From NCBI GenBank assembly GCA_964584895.1, contig CAZPAW010000002.1, forward strand, positions 66,748 to 130,747: a stretch of 64,000 bases of DNA. Direction: 5' to 3'. Under the pieces are notes generated by a model. It was not told the origin of the DNA. It saw only the letters and a program-made list of their open reading frames with translations, and did not search any database. The position numbers were made by a program, and so were the translations under genes. Shown one piece after another: positions 39,288 to 43,638 of the stretch (the first letter of the stretch is position 1; each line of letters begins with the position of its first letter). The DNA is from an uncultured Candidatus Saccharibacteria bacterium. Its GTDB lineage: Bacteria; Patescibacteriota; Saccharimonadia; Saccharimonadales; JAGQNJ01.

Positions 39288-39817
39288 AAGTAATAGCTGG
39301 TTATTTAAAGGGTCGTGAAATAGATGCGTTAATTGGCAAAAGAACTCACCCTATGAGCGAAAAAGCGCGCGGAGGGTTGTTCAATGTGCTTGGCGACCTT
39401 AGTGGACTTGAAGTTTTAGATGCTTTTGCTGGTACTGGAGCACTTAGTATCGAAGCAATTAGTCGTGGAGCTAAGAAAATTATTTCTATTGATATTGATA
39501 AAAAAGCGAATAATGTCTTAAAACAAAATATTAAGTCATTACAAATAGAAGATAAAATTAAAGCAATTAACGCTAATGTAAGTGGATGGTCCGATAATAA
39601 TGTAGGAGCACAATTTGATATCGTAATATCTGCGCCTCCATACGATGGAATAAAATTACCAATCTTAAAGAAGTTAGTAAGCCACGTTAAATCAAATGGA
39701 TTATATATACTTGATTGGCCAGGGAAAATGGAAATACCACAATTCGATTCGTTATCAATCGTCACGAATAAAAATTATGGTGACGCACAACTAGTTTTTT
39801 ATAAAAAAACAGGGTAA
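39257..39817 (+). CDS. rsmD: 16S rRNA (guanine966-N2)-methyltransferase RsmD
   Basis: Motifs DAFAGTGALSIEAISRGA and SAPPYD. The true start may be GTG 39284, which forms a GTGA overlap with the upstream stop. Confidence 0.85.
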   Translation: MQAESTPSEVKVIAGYLKGREIDALIGKRTHPMSEKARGGLFNVLGDLSGLEVLDAFAGTGALSIEAISRGAKKIISIDIDKKANNVLKQNIKSLQIEDKIKAINANVSGWSDNNVGAQFDIVISAPPYDGIKLPILKKLVSHVKSNGLYILDWPGKMEIPQFDSLSIVTNKNYGDAQLVFYKKTG

Positions 39818-41464
39818 AATCGAACAGTTACCAAAAATTATCAATGGGGATGTGGTGGAATTGGTAGACACGCTAGTCTTAGGAACTAGTGCCGCAAGGC
39901 GTGTAGGTTCGAGTCCTATCATCCCCACCAAGAACGAACTTTTCGGGAAATTTGAGCGCATTTGCGCTCTTTTTTCTTTGGTTTTGCGGAGCAAAAACCA
40001 AATGTTTTCAGGGGGGAGAAAAGAATTTTGGGCAGCCGTAGGCTGCGCCTTTTTGGAATTCAAAAACAGGTTCAAACCGTCAATTTTGGCAAAAGCGTCC
40101 TTTATCGCCACAAAGTCGCCACTTTTTGCGATTTCACAGAGAGAAACGGCTTGTTTGAGCCACTGGCGCATAGGTTCAACCCAAGCTTTGCTGGCAAGCG
40201 TTAGCTTGCCGACTTGTTCCTCCAGCGACTTCTTTTCGCTCATTAGTTCGCCTTGTCTAGTGCGGTAGGTTTGCTGTTCAATATCTTGGTCTAAATAGCC
40301 GTCTAAAAGTCGCTGTAACTTGCCTTGCAAGTTCGCAAGTCGTGTTTGGGCATTAGCCACAAACACACTGGCAGACTGCTCGGCTTTGCGTTCGTCCTCG
40401 TCCAGCATTTTGCTCAAAGTCGTTGCCCAACTTTCGGGCAGGGCGTAGCCCTGCAATATGTCGGACAATTGCGCTGCTAAATCTTGCTCGGTAACTGGTG
40501 GCTCTTTGCAAGTAATAGTTTTGTGTTTTCTTGTACAACGGTAATAGATATATTCGTGCGTGTTGCCGTTTTTCTGGTGCTTTATCTTTTTCTCGGCGGT
40601 TATTGCCATATTACAAGTTGCACAAGTCAGCAAACCGCAAAACACCTGCGGCGCGGTTGCGCCTTTTTGAGGGTGGCAACGTTTGGCAATTACGGCTTGT
40701 ACTCGGTCAAATAGCCGTTTTTCAATTATTGCCTTGTGTTTGCCCTCGTACACCTCGCCGCAATAACGAAAATGTCCGAAGTAAAACGGGTTCGTTAGTA
40801 TGCGTTTTATCTGGTCTTTGGTCAGTTGTTTGCCGCTTTTGGTGGTAATGCCTCTGGACTTCATAAAAACGGCGACACTTTCAAGTGTTTGGTTGCCCTG
40901 TGTATATAACTCAAAAGCGGCTAAAATAACAGGCGCAAGCCGTTTGTTTACAATAACTGTTTTACTACGGACATCATTGATGTAGCCAATCGGGGCGTGG
41001 CTGGGGTACAACCCCAGCCGTACCTTTTGGCGCAAACCTCGCTTGGTGTTCTCGCTCAAATTGTCCACATAATACTTGGACTGCCCAAAAGCAATAGACA
41101 GCATAAATTTGCCTTGTGATGTGTTCTCAAACCAAAAAGACGGAAATTTGAGCGTGCCAATCTTGCCAGCGTCCAAAAGGTACACAATTTGCCCGCCGTC
41201 CACGCTATTGCGTGCAAGGCGATCAGGGTGCCACGCAAGTATATTGCCACCGTTCTTTTCAATTTCTGCCAGTAGTTTGCCAAAAATAGGGCGACCAGTT
41301 GTTTTTGCCGATTTCTTTTCTATAAACTCGGCGGCGATATACAAGCCTTCACGTTTGGCAAATTCTCGCAACTCCACGAGTTGCGCCTCAATAGACAAAA
41401 CCTGTTTGTCCTCAACATCTGTACTCTTGCGAGCATAGATGTAAAACTTTTGTATTGTTTCCAT
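39791..41464 (-). CDS. Large serine recombinase (integrase/invertase)
   Basis: The N-terminal resolvase domain has catalytic-Ser context YARKST and DRLARN. A recombinase domain, zinc ribbon (CGLLTCATCN...YYRCTRK) and coiled coil follow. RBS AAGGGGG. The ORF has no stop before IR-A or the att core. Its last 44 codons run antisense through tRNA-Leu to 39791, so the functional C-terminus is uncertain. Confidence 0.9.
   Translation of the reverse strand: METIQKFYIYARKSTDVEDKQVLSIEAQLVELREFAKREGLYIAAEFIEKKSAKTTGRPIFGKLLAEIEKNGGNILAWHPDRLARNSVDGGQIVYLLDAGKIGTLKFPSFWFENTSQGKFMLSIAFGQSKYYVDNLSENTKRGLRQKVRLGLYPSHAPIGYINDVRSKTVIVNKRLAPVILAAFELYTQGNQTLESVAVFMKSRGITTKSGKQLTKDQIKRILTNPFYFGHFRYCGEVYEGKHKAIIEKRLFDRVQAVIAKRCHPQKGATAPQVFCGLLTCATCNMAITAEKKIKHQKNGNTHEYIYYRCTRKHKTITCKEPPVTEQDLAAQLSDILQGYALPESWATTLSKMLDEDERKAEQSASVFVANAQTRLANLQGKLQRLLDGYLDQDIEQQTYRTRQGELMSEKKSLEEQVGKLTLASKAWVEPMRQWLKQAVSLCEIAKSGDFVAIKDAFAKIDGLNLFLNSKKAQPTAAQNSFLPPENIWFLLRKTKEKRAQMRSNFPKSSFLVGMIGLEPTRLAALVPKTSVSTNSTTSPLIIFGNCSILPCFFIKN
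39846..39930 (+). tRNA. tRNA-Leu (anticodon UAG), type II with long variable arm, CCA encoded
   Basis: Hand-folded. Acceptor GGGGATG/CATCCCC. D stem GTG/CAC. Anticodon stem CTAGT/ACTAG with loop CTTAGGA. Variable arm TGCCGCAAGGCGTG. T arm GTAGG-TTCGAGT-CCTAT. Discriminator A plus CCA. Confidence 0.93.
39925..40049 (+). repeat. IR-A left copy (125 bp)
   Basis: Reverse complement matches 41619-41743 at 123/125 positions (mismatches at 40026 and 40033). Starts with the last 6 nt of tRNA-Leu. Confidence 0.95.
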
Positions 41465-41586
41465 AGCTGTACCCCCTTGAACTCAAATAGCCGCCCTGTT
41501 GCACACAAATCAGGCAAGCCTAACTTGTACAGGACGGCTATTAAAGCCAAGCAAAAAGCCTGCCAAAATGATTTGTGTGCATTTGT

Positions 41587-41615
41587 ATTTTACCAAATAC
41601 CGCCAACTACGGCAA
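41587..41615 (-). promoter_or_regulatory. Candidate promoter of the recombinase gene
   Basis: On the minus strand: TTGCCG (41615-41610), 17-bp spacer, TAAAAT (41592-41587). The -35 box abuts the inner edge of IR-A right. Confidence 0.4.
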
Positions 41616-41618
41616 AAC

Positions 41619-41743
41619 GGCGCAGCCTACGGCTACCCAAAGTTCTTTTCTCCCCCCTGAAAACATTTGGTTTTTGCTCCGCAAAACCAAAGAAAAAAGA
41701 GCGCAAATGCGCTCAAATTTCCCGAAAAGTTCGTTCTTGGTGG
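41619..41743 (-). repeat. IR-A right copy (125 bp)
   Basis: Inverted copy of 39925-40049. Overlaps IR-B left by the 7-bp core ttggtgg (41737-41743). Confidence 0.95.
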
Positions 41744-41911
41744 AATTTTACAACTCCGCTAGAACCTATTTTGAGGAAAAGTGCTGAAAACTGCAAGGCG
41801 GCGGGCAACGCCCGCTCCGCCAGAAAAACAATTCTTTGCATTTTTTGAATTTTACCCCCGCCGAATTTCTTTTTTTGAATTTGGAAAAGAATTGTTTTTC
41901 TGGACGGTGCG
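41737..41911 (+). repeat. IR-B left copy (175 bp)
   Basis: A perfect reverse complement of 43102-43276, checked base by base. Contains an internal 18-bp-arm hairpin (41820-41837 / 41886-41903) and a GC hairpin GCGGGC-AAC-GCCCGC (41801-41815). Confidence 0.95.
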
Positions 41912-41928
41912 AACAGCGTAACTAGGCT

Positions 41929-43065
41929 TTAAGAAGAGTAGCTTCTATCGATACGGTCAGACAACGAGGTAACAACCTCATAATTTATAGTTTCGTATGC
42001 GCTCGCTATGTCGTCAGCTGTAATCGATAGCGAACCTTGTTCCCCCATTAGAATAACCTCATTACCGACGACAACTGAGCCGTCGATATCAGTAATATCA
42101 ATTACTGTTTGATCCATTGCTACGCTGCCGACTATCGGAGCAAATTGTCCATTTATCAAAACTTTGGTGGCATTGTGTGGCGTACGGCGGTAGCCATCGC
42201 CATACCCGACTGGTAGTAGTGCAATGGTGCTTTGTTTTTCGGCTTTCCAGCGCCGGTTGTAACCCACCGTTTCTCCTGGCTCAATAGTTCTCACAAAAAT
42301 TACTTGCGTTTTAAATGATAGGACGGGCTTGAACTCTTTAGCAACAAATTCGTATTTCTGGTGTTCCTCTGGGAAAGGATTGAGCCCATATGTTATCAGG
42401 CCCGGCCGAACCATCGTAAAGTGCGCTTCTGGAAAATTGATAATTGCGGCACTATTAGCACAGTGTATCAACGGAGGGTTGATTCCTTCATTTTGCAGCA
42501 TATTAAGCGAATCGTTGAATACCTTTAGCTGTTGGTGCGTAAACGCAACATCTAATGCTTCTGACTCAGCAAAATGCGTAAATAAGCCCTCTAGTTCCAT
42601 GTGTGATGAGTGCTGTATGGCTTGAGCAAGAGCAAGTAACTTATCGGGGTCGCAACCTGCCCTATGCATGCCTGTATCAATCTTAATATGAACCTTGGCT
42701 TTCTTTCCTTGAGTACTGGCGGCTCCCTCGATAGCAGATAGTATCTTTTCGTCCATGACTGTGATAGATGCATCAAGCTGGATTGCTTCCATAACTGAAG
42801 CTTTATCGAGGTAATTAAGTAACAAAATTGGTGCACGAACACCTGCGCTACGGACTTTTTTAAGTTCACCCAAGCTAACAACGCCTATATAGGTTGCTCC
42901 AGCTTCAATGGCTTTCTTAGCCGTCTCTTCAATACCATGTCCATAGGCGTTAGCTTTCACAACAGCCATCACTCTTGTATCATTTGATACAATTTCCAGT
43001 ATCTTTGAGATATTATGAGCATAATTTCCAAGGTTTATATCTGCTACAGTTAGTCGGTTTGGCAT
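41929..43065 (-). CDS. alr: Alanine racemase
   Basis: 378 aa. PLP-lysine motif AVVKANAYGHG and a C-terminal beta domain. TATAAT (43078-43073, minus strand) lies 7 nt upstream of the ATG. Confidence 0.93.
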   Translation of the reverse strand: MPNRLTVADINLGNYAHNISKILEIVSNDTRVMAVVKANAYGHGIEETAKKAIEAGATYIGVVSLGELKKVRSAGVRAPILLLNYLDKASVMEAIQLDASITVMDEKILSAIEGAASTQGKKAKVHIKIDTGMHRAGCDPDKLLALAQAIQHSSHMELEGLFTHFAESEALDVAFTHQQLKVFNDSLNMLQNEGINPPLIHCANSAAIINFPEAHFTMVRPGLITYGLNPFPEEHQKYEFVAKEFKPVLSFKTQVIFVRTIEPGETVGYNRRWKAEKQSTIALLPVGYGDGYRRTPHNATKVLINGQFAPIVGSVAMDQTVIDITDIDGSVVVGNEVILMGEQGSLSITADDIASAYETINYEVVTSLSDRIDRSYSS

Positions 43066-43101
43066 ACTTACGATTATAGCCTAAATGTCGCCTGTGGCGA
43101 C

Positions 43102-43276
43102 CGCACCGTCCAGAAAAACAATTCTTTTCCAAATTCAAAAAAAGAAATTCGGCGGGGGTAAAATTCAAAAAATGCAAAGAATTGTTTTTCTGGCGGAGCG
43201 GGCGTTGCCCGCCGCCTTGCAGTTTTCAGCACTTTTCCTCAAAATAGGTTCTAGCGGAGTTGTAAAATTCCACCAA
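43102..43276 (-). repeat. IR-B right copy (175 bp)
   Basis: A perfect inverted copy of 41737-41911. Ends with CCACCAA (43270-43276). Confidence 0.95.
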
Positions 43277-43428
43277 TGAAACAAGATCGTCATCTGACGG
43301 TCTTTTTTCATTTTCGAGTGTTGAAAGACTCGAACCCTGGTCGAAAATCGCCTGTGGCTGTTTTCGTTTTACTTGCTTGTTGCTATGCGCAATGACTTCA
43401 GTCATTTTACCGCTAGCAGAAGATGAAG

Positions 43429-43446
43429 GAGCCCTATCATCCCCAC
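43429..43446 (+). pseudogene. Remnant of a tRNA-Leu 3' end
   Basis: gagCcctatcatccccac matches tRNA-Leu 39911-39928 (gagTcctatcatccccac) at 17/18 positions, in the same orientation, 153 bp beyond the element edge. Confidence 0.6.
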
Positions 43447-43638
43447 TAACAAAGATATCGCCCATAGTGGCGATTCTTTAATTAGTCTAGGGATGGCAGA
43501 TTTGAACTTCACCCCAAGAGTAAAGGCGAGAATAGCTCGACGACTATCCGAACGTAAAACTTCTAAATTCAAATTCTTTTTACGTATAAAAACGATAAGA
43601 GCTCTATTAATTGTAAAAGTGATAAACTATTAAGTATT

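What the first reader, a model, noticed from the sequence alone, without database searches (positions are those of the whole stretch)
39791..40049. Recombinase ORF has no stop before the att core, so its C-terminal tail is set by the junction it faces
On the minus strand the recombinase frame stays open through all of IR-A (about 42 codons, ...KKAQPTAAQNSFLPPENIWFLLRKTKEKRAQMRSNFPKSSFLV). It then crosses the CCACCAA core. In the present context it continues for 44 codons antisense to tRNA-Leu and the rsmD 3' end (GMIGLEPTRL...CFFIKN, stop at 39791), giving 557 aa.

The mirror copy of IR-A at 41619-41743 carries the same frame, seen as the + strand ORF 41575-41787. There it reads across the core into IR-B as EFYNSARTYFEEKC-stop. 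After inversion of the recombinase module, or in an excised circle, the protein would therefore end 14 aa after the core (527 aa).

The same EFYNSARTYFEEKC tail is also encoded at the third junction (minus ORF 43226-43465).

A recombination-state-dependent C-terminus recalls the integration-dependent immunity systems of some mycobacteriophages. In those, attP lies inside a regulatory gene and integration changes the protein tail and its stability. Whether the IR-encoded tail is translated at all is inference.
Basis: partly seen in the sequence, partly recalled or inferred. Interest (0 to 1): 0.6.

Follow-up and report, generated by a model that had tools for sequence, protein, structure and literature searches.

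The report
Integration rewrites a recombinase's tail
A 3.4-kb mobile element of an ultra-small (CPR, probably Saccharibacteria) bacterium has its insertion crossover point 14 codons before the end of its own recombinase gene, so inserting next to a tRNA gene swaps the enzyme's tail; hundreds of related elements do the same, but this stretch is conserved mainly as DNA and RNA signals, not clearly as protein.

Summary
The 557-aa large serine recombinase ORF (39791-41464, minus) has no stop before the CCACCAA core at the tRNA-Leu CCA end. It then reads 44 codons antisense to the tRNA. The mirror copy (41613-41743) reads across the same core into EFYNSARTYFEEKC-stop.

In 60 of 64 related CPR loci the ORF likewise runs into a tRNA gene. 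About 45 mirror copies encode a conserved 14-aa native tail. Of the 120 closest protein clusters, 17 end with that tail, all on short contigs.

The regulatory reading is not established.
- Codons 472-511 show almost no coding-type substitution pattern (omega 0.78 against 0.85-0.98 off-frame).
- This stretch is three covarying hairpins that act as terminator-like sites on the tRNA-sense strand.
- The tail-coding arm mimics the tRNA T-loop, shifted 4 bp outward, as expected for an attP half-site.

Some evidence points the other way.
- The frame is open in 43 of 43 loci.
- The native stop position is fixed.
- AlphaFold2 predicts an ordered helix for the native tail and disorder for the fused one.

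Best reading: attP overlaps the 3' end of the gene, as in phage Mx8. Whether the tail swap has a function is untested.

The parts
39846..39930 (+). tRNA-Leu (anticodon UAG) with encoded CCA. It is the B arm of the attachment site (attL side).
   Evidence: ARAGORN; Rfam RF00005, 60.5 bits.
39925..39931 (+). Core copy 1 (CCACCAA) at the tRNA 3' end. On the minus strand it encodes L512-V513 and the first base of codon 514.
   Evidence: Sequence. It forms the outer end of IR-A. In relatives the core is TGG + 2 nt, the reverse complement of xxCCA.
39791..39924 (-). Junction-specific fused tail: 44 codons (GMIGLEPTRL...CFFIKN) plus stop. It is antisense to tRNA-Leu and to the last 27 nt of rsmD.
   Evidence: AlphaFold2 gives pLDDT below 50 from residue 505 on. 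Equivalent tails in relatives are 5-73 aa and unrelated to each other.
39932..40055 (-). IR-A. It holds the attP P' arm plus three hairpins, and is read as recombinase codons about 470-511.
   Evidence: 131-nt inverted repeat at 98%. Omega 0.78 against 0.85-0.98 off-frame. Frame open in 43 of 43 loci. Hairpin covariation.
39954..39969 (+). Hairpin 3, GAGCGC-ATTT-GCGCTC followed by TTTTTTCTTT. A terminator-like site 24 nt after the tRNA 3' end.
   Evidence: Terminator scan. 93% of cells paired, with 3 pairs changed on both sides.
39977..40002 (+). Hairpin 2, TTTGGTTTTGC-GGA-GCAAAAACCAAA. On the other strand it encodes the 'invariant' W489..L492 motif.
   Evidence: 89% of cells paired, 6 of 10 pairs changed on both sides (for example UA:11 / GC:9). 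Distant relatives have TGGGCGGCGC...GCGCCGCCCA here.
40032..40046 (+). Hairpin 1, GCAGCC-GTA-GGCTGC followed by GCCTTTTTGG. On the other strand it encodes KKAQPTAA.
40056..41464 (-). Body of the large serine recombinase (residues 1 to about 469): Resolvase, Recombinase and zinc-ribbon domains with a coiled-coil insertion.
   Evidence: Pfam PF00239, PF07508, PF13408. Omega 0.21-0.32. Foldseek matches to the SPbeta, LI, Bxb1 and phiC31 integrases.
41465..41612 (-). Region upstream of the recombinase gene, with a promoter-like site (TTGCCG-17-TAAAAT, 41615..41587).
   Evidence: Consensus scan only.
41613..41736 (+). Mirror copy of IR-A. It carries the same frame (...KTAQPTATQSSFLPPENIW...KSSF) with no recombinase body attached.
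   Evidence: Present in 50 of 64 related loci, mostly 98-100% identical to the copy at the gene's 3' end.
41737..41743 (+). Core copy 2 (TTGGTGG), inverted. Together with its two flanks it forms an intact attP in inverted orientation.
41743..41787 (+). Native tail EFYNSARTYFEEKC plus TGA. It is the attP P arm and contains GCTAGAACCTATTTT, a tRNA T-loop mimic.
   Evidence: AlphaFold2 helix 510-526 with pLDDT 77-83 in the native-tail homologue P0010.
41744..41911 (+). IR-B, left copy.
   Evidence: 175-nt inverted repeat at 100%. An equivalent pair flanks the cargo in 27 related loci.
41929..43065 (-). Cargo gene: alanine racemase, 378 aa.
   Evidence: Pfam PF01168 and PF00842. Cargo differs in every relative.
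43102..43269 (+). IR-B, right copy. On the minus strand it again encodes the EFYNSARTYFEEKC tail.
43270..43276 (+). Core copy 3 (CCACCAA). This is the attR-type junction with host DNA.
43283..43304 (+). Terminator-like hairpin in the B' flank. It is probably the original tRNA-Leu terminator, displaced 3.35 kb by the element.
   Evidence: Weak similarity to the IR-A terminator (z = 3.3).

Best explanation
Window 39925-43276 is an integrated 3.35-kb element. It belongs to a large family, confined to CPR bacteria, of elements that carry a large serine recombinase (LSR) and insert at the CCA end of tRNA genes.

What is shown.
- The element's attP overlaps the 3' end of the recombinase gene, and the crossover core lies 14 codons before the native stop.
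- Integration therefore replaces the last 14 residues (x[FL]Yxx[AV]RT[YH]Fxxxx) with whatever the antisense strand of the target tRNA encodes. Here that is 44 residues; in relatives it is 5-73.
- The roughly 42 codons before the core double as a tandem set of three hairpins. On the opposite strand these look like terminators. They replace the tRNA's own terminator, which integration displaces.
- The same hairpins sit in mirror image upstream of the recombinase gene.
- The 14 tail codons are also the attP P arm, which imitates the tRNA T-loop 4 bp further from the core.

What is inferred.
- The last 56 codons are shaped mainly by these nucleic-acid functions.
- The reading frame is kept open because the native protein ends in a short helical extension that is tolerated, or mildly useful.
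- The tail swap is primarily a consequence of where attP sits, not a demonstrated switch.
For: Identity and fold.
- LSR domains and fold.

Family-wide anatomy.
- 572 related loci in GTDB species representatives, across Saccharibacteria and the Morani-, Nomura-, Magasanik-, Parcu-, Uhr- and Paceibacterota groups.
- The ORF runs antisense into a tRNA gene in 60 of 64 complete loci. At least 11 amino-acid specificities are used (Leu, Arg, Ile, Gln, Gly, Val, Lys, Thr, Ser, Asn, Cys).
- The native tail is encoded by the mirror copy in about 45 loci.
- The native tail is exactly 14 aa in 27 of 36 loci; fused tails are 5-73 aa.

Nucleic-acid constraint.
- Omega for codons 472-511 is 0.78, against 0.85-0.98 in the off-frames. 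For the body it is 0.21-0.32 against 1.1-1.9.
- Synonymous divergence is depressed: pS is 0.41-0.57, against 0.77 in the body.
- Information in the tail core by codon position is 1.17 / 1.53 / 1.18 bits (all).
- Three hairpins: 87% of cells paired against 36-50% with slid partners. 12 pairs changed on both sides. 0 of 500 shuffles reach the observed score.
- Terminator-like sites number 1.91 per IR-A on the tRNA-sense strand (42 of 43 loci), against 0.23 on the recombinase-sense strand. The window's own sites are listed.
- In the tRNA arm the shared (C)T(C)GAACC(T) motif has GAA at offset 15 (24 of 29 loci). In the P arm GAAC is at offset 19 (26 of 29). For LI integrase the zinc-ribbon motif is shifted 5 bp between attB and attP (PMC3783163).

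Free and integrated forms.
- Native-tail genes make up 17 of the top 120 clusters. All are on contigs of 1.7-5.5 kb.
- The four read in detail have mirror attP - rec - attP - cargo and no tRNA (L001, L081-L083).

Precedent.
- Mx8 attP lies within int, and integration gives int a new 3' end (PMC6070905).
Against: - Frame 0 of the IR-A stretch is open in 43 of 43 loci, against 22 and 18 of 43 for the other frames.
- No gene-linked copy is disrupted (0 of 69). Of 50 mirror copies 4-5 are (4 with a frameshift or stop; L063 has only diverged in frame), Fisher p about 0.01-0.03. So some selection does keep translation running to the core.
- The position of the native stop is fixed.
- AlphaFold2 gives the native tail as a helix with pLDDT 77-83 and helix 488-502 at 63-80.
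- In the fused window protein everything after residue 505 is below 50, and helix 488-503 drops to 46-56. An ordered-to-disordered change on integration could matter for function.
- The element has no room for a directionality factor.
- Orientation is strongly biased: integrated copies almost always have the gene facing the tRNA. A purely neutral by-product does not explain this.
Confidence: 0.55

Rival explanations
1. Regulatory tail switch. The native 14-aa helix is needed for one direction of the reaction or for stability. Replacing it with a disordered tRNA-antisense peptide would then lock, inactivate, destabilise or re-direct the enzyme. Directionality would be controlled without a separate directionality factor, as reported for Mx8 IntP/IntX.
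For: - The frame is always open to the core.
- The native stop position is fixed.
- AlphaFold2 predicts order for the native tail and disorder for the fused tail.
- The element holds only the recombinase and one cargo gene, with no candidate directionality factor.
- About 60 of 64 MAG loci carry the fused state. Native-tail genes sit only on short unbinned contigs.
- Integrated recombinase bodies stay under purifying selection.
- Mx8 precedent: the changed 3' end altered integrase specificity (PMC6070905).
Against: - There is no frame-specific substitution signal in codons 472-527.
- Every conserved amino-acid motif there coincides with a hairpin stem or the T-loop mimic.
- Fused tails share nothing, so only loss of the native tail could carry a signal.
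- Two of the 120 homologues are frameshifted inside IR-A yet otherwise intact (P0053, P0101).
- A confident pLDDT for a lone amphipathic helix is weak evidence.
Confidence: 0.28
2. In-place inversion switch. The recombinase, or homologous recombination, flips the IR-A-flanked recombinase module and the IR-B-flanked cargo module within the chromosome. This would toggle the enzyme between its two tails, and change cargo orientation, as a phase-variation device like Hin or a shufflon.
For: - Both modules are flanked by long, near-perfect inverted repeats that end in the same core. This holds in the window and in 50 and 27 related loci.
- Cargo ORFs occur in either orientation relative to the recombinase gene.
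- Many contigs break inside the repeats.
Against: - If flipping were frequent, consensus assemblies should show both orientations. About 60 of 64 show the gene facing the tRNA.
- The few chromosomal-looking native-tail cases have diverged IR-A copies, so they are not simple flips (L001 at 78%; L002).
- attL x attP is not a permitted pairing for characterised serine integrases (PMC3783163).
- Contig breaks at repeats are expected with or without inversion.
Confidence: 0.12
3. Chance open frame or assembly artefact. The run-on ORF and the repeats would be accidents of composition or of metagenome assembly.
For: The stretch is poor in stops in all frames. Other frames are open in 18-22 of 43 loci, and a 155-aa ORF in another frame crosses the mirror copy in the window.
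Against: - The same anatomy appears in dozens of independent assemblies from different studies and phyla.
- Frame 0 is open in 43 of 43 loci.
- The tail motif is absent from shuffled sequence.
Confidence: 0.02

Closest known systems
Myxococcus phage Mx8 integrase (intP in the phage, a recombinant int gene in the prophage)
   Same: attP lies inside the integrase coding sequence. Integration creates a recombinant gene with a new 3' end, so the free and integrated forms encode different C-termini (PMC6070905, citing Tojo 1996 and Magrini 1999). From my own recollection of those primary papers, which I could not open: the Mx8 attB sites lie in tRNA-Asp genes and the prophage gene is called intX.
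   Different: - Mx8 Int is a tyrosine recombinase of a 49-kb phage.
- Here the enzyme is a large serine recombinase of a 3-7 kb element with no phage genes.
- Only 14 residues are exchanged.
- An extra inverted attP and two inverted-repeat pairs are present.
- A functional consequence is documented for Mx8 and untested here.
Integration-dependent immunity of mycobacteriophages (BPs, Brujita and relatives)
   Same: attP lies inside a gene, so integration changes the C-terminus of that gene's product (PMC4557955).
   Different: - There the gene is the repressor, not the recombinase.
- The integrase is a tyrosine recombinase.
- As I recall the published system, the switch works by removing a C-terminal degradation tag.
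- Here there is no repressor. Native tails end in ...EEKC...QQNA or ...IKNS, not in an ssrA-like tag.
Phage-type large serine integrases (A118/LI, SPbeta, Bxb1, phiC31)
   Same: Same domain set and fold. attP and attB half-sites share a motif that lies further from the centre in attP (PMC3783163).
   Different: - To my knowledge, characterised serine integrases are not described as having the crossover inside their own ORF.
- They use a separate directionality factor.
- Here the shift is 4 bp rather than 5.
- The target is the generic 3' end of many different tRNA genes.
- attP shows only weak dyad symmetry.
SSV1-type archaeal virus integrases
   Same: From general knowledge: attP lies within the int gene and the target is a tRNA gene, so integration rearranges the recombinase gene itself.
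   Different: SSV1 Int is a tyrosine recombinase, and integration splits the gene into two separated parts. Here the whole catalytic and DNA-binding body stays intact.
Hin-type invertible segments and the yeast 2-micron circle (FLP)
   Same: The recombinase gene lies between inverted repeats that contain its own crossover sites. Two unique segments are separated by a pair of inverted repeats.
   Different: Hin is a small serine invertase with 26-bp sites and an enhancer. FLP is a tyrosine recombinase on a replicating plasmid. Inversion is not shown here, and the element is integrated next to a tRNA gene.

Membership tests
Large serine recombinase (serine integrase) | N-terminal resolvase-type catalytic domain with the active-site serine | tested here: met
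   PF00239, E = 4e-21, residues 8-151. R12, S14 and other residues of the YARKSTD motif are invariant in 110 homologues. The N-terminal domains of 3g13, 3guv and TP901-1 integrase match.
Large serine recombinase (serine integrase) | Recombinase domain plus zinc-ribbon domain with a coiled-coil insertion | tested here: met
   PF07508 (1.4e-15) and PF13408 (4e-07). Invariant C276, C281, C284, C310, C319. AlphaFold2 helices 344-391 and 397-426 with pLDDT 82-94. Foldseek E = 2e-13 to SPbeta integrase and 4e-9 to LI integrase 4kis.
Large serine recombinase (serine integrase) | attP and attB half-sites share a zinc-ribbon-domain motif displaced by about 5 bp | tested here: inconclusive
   The shared (C)T(C)GAACC(T) motif sits at offset 15 in the tRNA arm and 19 in the P arm, a 4-bp shift. 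Only one arm of each site could be compared. The dyad-symmetry test of attP was weak (best score 0.38, and not centred on the core).
Large serine recombinase (serine integrase) | Conservative recombination at a 2-bp crossover, attP x attB giving attL + attR | not testable with these tools
   The three junctions share a 7-nt core and have the half-site composition of attL, inverted attP and attR. No empty attB was found.
Mx8-type 'attP inside int' arrangement | Crossover site within the recombinase coding sequence, so the integrated gene has a new 3' end | tested here: met
Mx8-type 'attP inside int' arrangement | Tyrosine recombinase | tested here: not met
   The enzyme is a serine recombinase.
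Mx8-type 'attP inside int' arrangement | The altered C-terminus changes integrase activity or specificity | not testable with these tools
   Only indirect hints: AlphaFold2 order against disorder, set against no codon-level constraint.
Integration-dependent immunity (mycobacteriophage BPs type) | attP inside the repressor gene | tested here: not met
   attP is inside the recombinase gene. The element holds only the recombinase and alanine racemase.
Integration-dependent immunity (mycobacteriophage BPs type) | C-terminal degradation tag on the free form that integration removes | tested here: not met
   About 45 native tails were inspected. They end in EEKC, EENC, STKC, QQNA, IKNS or QNK; none is ssrA-like. 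Proteolysis itself was not testable.
Serine invertase phase-variation systems (Hin/Gin/Min) | Small serine recombinase with a C-terminal helix-turn-helix, short inverted sites, and both orientations present in a population | tested here: not met
   The enzyme is a 527/557-aa LSR. About 60 of 64 assemblies show one orientation. Population-level inversion was not testable.

The most novel reading that the evidence does not exclude
The tail swap is the element's directionality control. The native isoform would carry out attP x attB integration, using a C-terminal helical hairpin encoded across attP. The integrated isoform, whose tail is replaced by a disordered tRNA-antisense peptide, would be locked, or re-directed toward the intact internal attP or toward excision. 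An LSR element with no directionality factor would then sense its own integration state through its own gene. The universal inverted attP and the near-exclusive 'gene faces tRNA' orientation would follow from this ratchet.
Probability: 0.22. Interest if true: 0.85.

Novelty: new variant of a known kind. Interest (0 to 1): 0.58.

Why it matters
If the swap is functional, this would be a serine integrase whose direction or stability is set by recombination within its own gene. That is a compact self-sensing switch, of interest for how serine integrases control directionality and for synthetic biology.

Even if it is a by-product, the work defines a widespread element family that I found no description of (literature searches returned nothing).
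- It is found across CPR / Patescibacteria: 572+ loci in species representatives and thousands of protein clusters.
- It moves single metabolic genes into the CCA end of many different tRNA genes.
- It carries its own replacement terminators.
- It mimics the tRNA T-loop in attP.

It also supplies natural attP/attB pairs and recombinases from organisms for which genetic tools are scarce.

Finally, it is a clear case of one 170-nt stretch carrying four overlapping codes: ORF, attachment site, terminators and inverted repeat. 'Invariant' residues such as W489 and L492 turn out to lie in hairpin stems.

Tried and rejected
- Dyad symmetry of attP over 32 aligned sites. The best scores (0.38) were not centred on the core, so I make no pseudo-palindrome claim.
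- Empty attB. An exact 26-nt tRNA-end + B' junction was searched in JGI metagenomes and gave no hit.
- Phage origin. IMG/VR holds no relative, so this is not a known viral integrase.
- Pooled NG86 dN/dS without a frame control was misleading because the body is saturated (pS 0.76). It was replaced by a comparison of the three frames and by close pairs.
- RNAalifold's own consensus missed hairpin 1 and drew a spurious T-run/G-run helix. I specified the three hairpins explicitly and counted pairs instead.
- A phmmer search of 1.84 billion representatives with the 57-aa mirror peptide returned only 40 small ORFs (26-231 aa, most 62-161). These are mirror copies called as genes, with no conserved N-terminus. 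This gives no support for a separately expressed C-terminal peptide, and no estimate of the ratio of native to fused forms.
- Is B' a decayed IR-A? There is only a weak local match at the terminator hairpin (z = 3.3). The stretch after the tRNA remnant does not match (z = -0.9).
- The primary Mx8 papers (PMC93896, PMC93897) are not held. Mx8 is cited through the review PMC6070905.
- Rfam finds nothing but the tRNA in the window.
Full report
1. WHAT IS IN THE WINDOW

The minus-strand ORF 39791..41464 encodes a 557-aa protein with Resolvase (8-151), Recombinase (177-262) and zinc-ribbon (275-331) domains. It is a large serine recombinase (LSR).

An AlphaFold2 model of a close homologue matches the SPbeta, LI (4kis), Bxb1 and phiC31 integrases by Foldseek.

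tRNA-Leu(UAG) lies at 39846-39930 on the plus strand. The 7-nt core CCACCAA (39925-39931) covers the last acceptor bases, the discriminator, the CCA and one further base.

The ORF has no stop before this core. It reads ...KKAQPTAAQNSFLPPENIWFLLRKTKEKRAQMRSNFPKSSFLV. It then continues for 44 codons antisense to the tRNA and to the last 27 nt of rsmD.

The repeat finder gives two inverted-repeat pairs.
- IR-A: 39925-40055 / 41613-41743, 131 nt, 98%. It flanks the recombinase gene.
- IR-B: 41737-41911 / 43102-43276, 175 nt, 100%. It flanks an alanine racemase gene (41929-43065).
- The pairs overlap by the core, so there are three cores in alternating orientation.

By half-site composition the three junctions are as follows.
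- tRNA | IR-A: attL type.
- IR-A' | IR-B: a complete attP, inverted.
- IR-B' | host: attR type.

G+C is 0.43-0.50 inside the element and 0.30-0.40 outside it.

The mirror copy reads in the same frame into EFYNSARTYFEEKC-stop (ORF 41575-41787). So does the third junction (ORF 43226-43465).

2. IT IS A FAMILY TRAIT, NOT AN ACCIDENT

A protein search returned 7866 significant homologues. The best 120 are 64-93% identical. All but a handful continue through the IR-A-encoded stretch and diverge exactly after ...LV.
- 93 of 120 then read G[LIVF]EP-type peptides, the signature of an antisense tRNA T-arm.
- 17 end in x[FL]Yxx[AV]RT[YH]Fxxxx.
- 10 are of other kinds.

A scan of one genome per GTDB species found 572 related loci. 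They lie in Saccharibacteria and in the Morani-, Nomura-, Magasanik-, Parcu-, Uhr- and Paceibacterota groups.

I analysed the 64 loci with a complete gene.
- In 60 the ORF runs antisense into a tRNA gene: Leu, Arg, Ile, Gln, Gly, Val, Lys, Thr, Ser, Asn or Cys.
- In 50 an inverted copy of the gene's last 100-185 nt lies about 150 nt upstream of its start. This copy is mostly 98-100% identical to the gene's own 3' end. Most of the remaining contigs start too close to the gene to tell.
- In about 45 loci that mirror copy continues in frame into the conserved tail.
- A second inverted-repeat pair of 150-270 nt flanks a cargo segment of 0.9-5.2 kb in 27 loci.

The native tail is exactly 14 aa in 27 of 36 loci. 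Fused tails are 5-73 aa, median 22.

Cargo differs everywhere. Examples are a methyltransferase, an AraC-type regulator, inositol monophosphatase, an FAD oxidase, a zinc alcohol dehydrogenase, an EamA transporter, a GDSL lipase, a 2-hydroxyacid dehydrogenase, a short-chain dehydrogenase and an aminotransferase.

No relative occurs in IMG/VR.

3. IS THE RUN-ON STRETCH PROTEIN-CODING IN THE EVOLUTIONARY SENSE?

I built a codon alignment of 43 reconstructed native genes and compared Nei-Gojobori pN/pS in the true frame with the two shifted frames.
- Body: 0.21-0.32, against 1.1-1.9 in the shifted frames. A strong coding signal.
- Residues 430-471: 0.46-0.57, against 0.9-1.1.
- IR-A codons 472-511: 0.78, against 0.85-0.98. 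Essentially no frame-specific signal.
- Tail 514-527: 0.58-0.67, against 0.67-0.73 and 1.06-1.13.

In the tail core all three codon positions are about equally conserved (1.17, 1.53 and 1.18 bits). Synonymous divergence is depressed there (pS 0.41-0.50, against 0.77 in the body). That is the pattern of a constraint on the nucleic acid.

4. WHAT THE NUCLEIC-ACID CONSTRAINTS ARE

(a) IR-A consists of three hairpins. On a 22-sequence alignment my three-helix structure behaves as follows (RNAalifold independently found two of the three).
- 87% of cells form standard pairs, against 36-50% when partners are slid.
- 12 pairs have changes on both sides.
- 0 of 500 shuffles reach the observed score.

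The 'invariant' W489 and L492, and the KKAQPTAA motif, lie in hairpin stems. In distant relatives TTTGGTTTTGC/GCAAAAACCAAA is replaced by TGGGCGGCGC/GCGCCGCCCA, which turns WFLLRKT into WAALRAAH.

On the tRNA-sense strand the hairpins are followed by T runs.
- The window has GAGCGCATTTGCGCTC+TTTTTTCTTT 24 nt after the tRNA, and GCAGCCGTAGGCTGC+GCCTTTTTGG further in. Both have mirror images at the other end of the module.
- Across 43 loci there are 1.91 terminator-like sites per IR-A on that strand (42 of 43 loci have at least one).
- The recombinase-sense strand has 0.23.

The host flank beyond the third core begins with its own hairpin and T run (43283-43304). This is probably the original tRNA terminator, now 3.35 kb away. 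The element therefore brings replacement terminators, encoded antisense within its recombinase tail.

(b) The tail-coding P arm has the consensus ...tT.TACaAC.a.GCTcGAACCTATTTT. The tRNA arm is Cg...g..aGGAcTcGAACCt. The shared motif starts at offset 19 in the P arm and 15 in the tRNA arm.

For LI integrase the zinc-ribbon-domain motif lies 5 bp closer to the centre in attB than in attP (PMC3783163). ARTYF is therefore largely the translation of a T-loop mimic.

A test for dyad symmetry of attP was not convincing.

5. EVIDENCE THAT TRANSLATION OF THE STRETCH STILL MATTERS

- Frame 0 of IR-A is open in 43 of 43 loci. The other frames are open in 22 and 18 of 43. The stretch is intrinsically poor in stops, which weakens this argument.
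- No gene-linked copy is disrupted (0 of 69). Of 50 mirror copies 4-5 are disrupted (4 by a frameshift or stop; L063 has only diverged in frame), p about 0.01-0.03.
- Two of the 120 homologues are frameshifted inside IR-A.
- For the native isoform (P0010, 527 aa), AlphaFold2 predicts a beta-hairpin at 466-475 that closes the zinc-ribbon domain. It then predicts helix 488-502 (pLDDT 63-80) and helix 510-526 (77-83).
- For the window's fused isoform, pLDDT is below 50 from residue 505 to the end, and helix 488-503 falls to 46-56.
- IR-A begins where the canonical LSR fold ends.
- These are predictions. The tail part of the alignment held only 17 native sequences.

6. FREE AND INTEGRATED FORMS

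Native-tail genes occur on short contigs of 1.7-5.5 kb. The four I read in detail (L001, L081, L082, L083) have the order mirror attP - promoter region - recombinase - attP - cargo, with no tRNA.

L002 has tRNA-Val in the same orientation as the gene, followed by a diverged IR-A and a native-tail gene.

Conservative recombination cannot create the internal attP on integration. The free form must therefore already carry two inverted attP sites, a layout like the 2-micron circle, with one of them split on integration.

This is inference. I could not demonstrate a circle or an empty attB.

Two things remain unexplained. One is why the internal attP is universal. The other is why MAG assemblies almost always show the gene facing the tRNA.

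7. MECHANISM AND VERDICT

Shown.
- attP overlaps the recombinase 3' end.
- Integration exchanges a conserved 14-aa ending for an arbitrary one.
- The preceding 42 codons are at the same time an att arm, a tandem terminator and an inverted repeat.

Inferred (confidence 0.55). The tail swap is chiefly a consequence of this packing. The C-terminal extension is tolerated, or mildly useful.

Rivals.
- A true regulatory switch: 0.28.
- In-place inversion: 0.12.
- Artefact: 0.02.

The closest precedent is phage Mx8, where attP lies within int and integration yields a recombinant int with a new 3' end and changed properties (PMC6070905). That enzyme is a tyrosine recombinase.

The mycobacteriophage integration-dependent immunity system (PMC4557955) shares only the principle of an attP inside a gene.

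Literature searches found no description of this CPR element family.

I rate it a new variant of a known kind.

Noticed in passing
window 43429-43455 (with 39911-39937): A 27-nt direct copy (85%) of the tRNA-Leu 3' end, with a degenerate core CCACTAA, lies 152 nt beyond the third core. On the minus strand it reads ...SLLVGMIGL, like the present recombinase/tRNA junction. It may be a relic of an earlier insertion or of a second tRNA. Serine recombination would not duplicate the tRNA end.
   Followed up: partly
window 41613-41911, and the equivalent site in L003-L080: Every integrated element keeps a complete attP in inverted orientation just upstream of the recombinase promoter region. The IR-A and IR-B pairs are 98-100% identical within an element, although elements differ by up to about 50%. 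This implies concerted evolution or a free form with two attP sites. The function is unknown.
   Followed up: partly
window 41929-43065; cargo segments of L003-L077: Cargo consists of one to a few ordinary metabolic or accessory genes, different in nearly every element and found in either orientation. Here it is alanine racemase. Elsewhere it includes a short-chain dehydrogenase, an aminotransferase, an alcohol dehydrogenase, inositol monophosphatase, an EamA transporter and a GDSL lipase. The system looks like gene-cassette traffic in genome-reduced CPR bacteria.
   Followed up: partly
L005 (2097-2282 and 547-638), L017 (10254-10282, 10450-10536), L001 (107-268 and 3155-3351): Some loci hold extra, diverged copies of the recombinase 3' end or of the junction. 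In L017 the tRNA-Leu lies 3 kb beyond the junction. This suggests tandem or nested arrays, and module exchange between elements at the shared core.
   Followed up: no
L003+L062, L010+L040, L012+L029, L017+L034, L018+L060: Single MAGs, sometimes single contigs, carry two family members with only 53-75% identical recombinases at different tRNA genes. Several lineages therefore coexist in one genome.
   Followed up: no
window 41615-41587 and 43100-43073 (minus strand): Promoter-like hexamers for the recombinase gene and for alr sit exactly at the inner edges of the upstream inverted-repeat copies. Each module would then be 'terminators - gene - promoter' framed by repeats. This rests on a consensus scan only.
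   Followed up: no
window 41820-41837 / 41886-41903, repeated at 43110-43127 / 43176-43193: IR-B itself contains a perfect 18-nt inverted repeat (CCAGAAAAACAATTCTTT ... AAAGAATTGTTTTTCTGG) with a 48-nt spacer. Its role is unknown.
   Followed up: no
P0121-P0160: Forty clusters of small predicted proteins (26-231 aa, most 62-161) are simply mirror copies of the recombinase 3' end that gene callers have annotated as genes. They are a likely source of spurious 'hypothetical proteins' in CPR genomes.
   Followed up: partly
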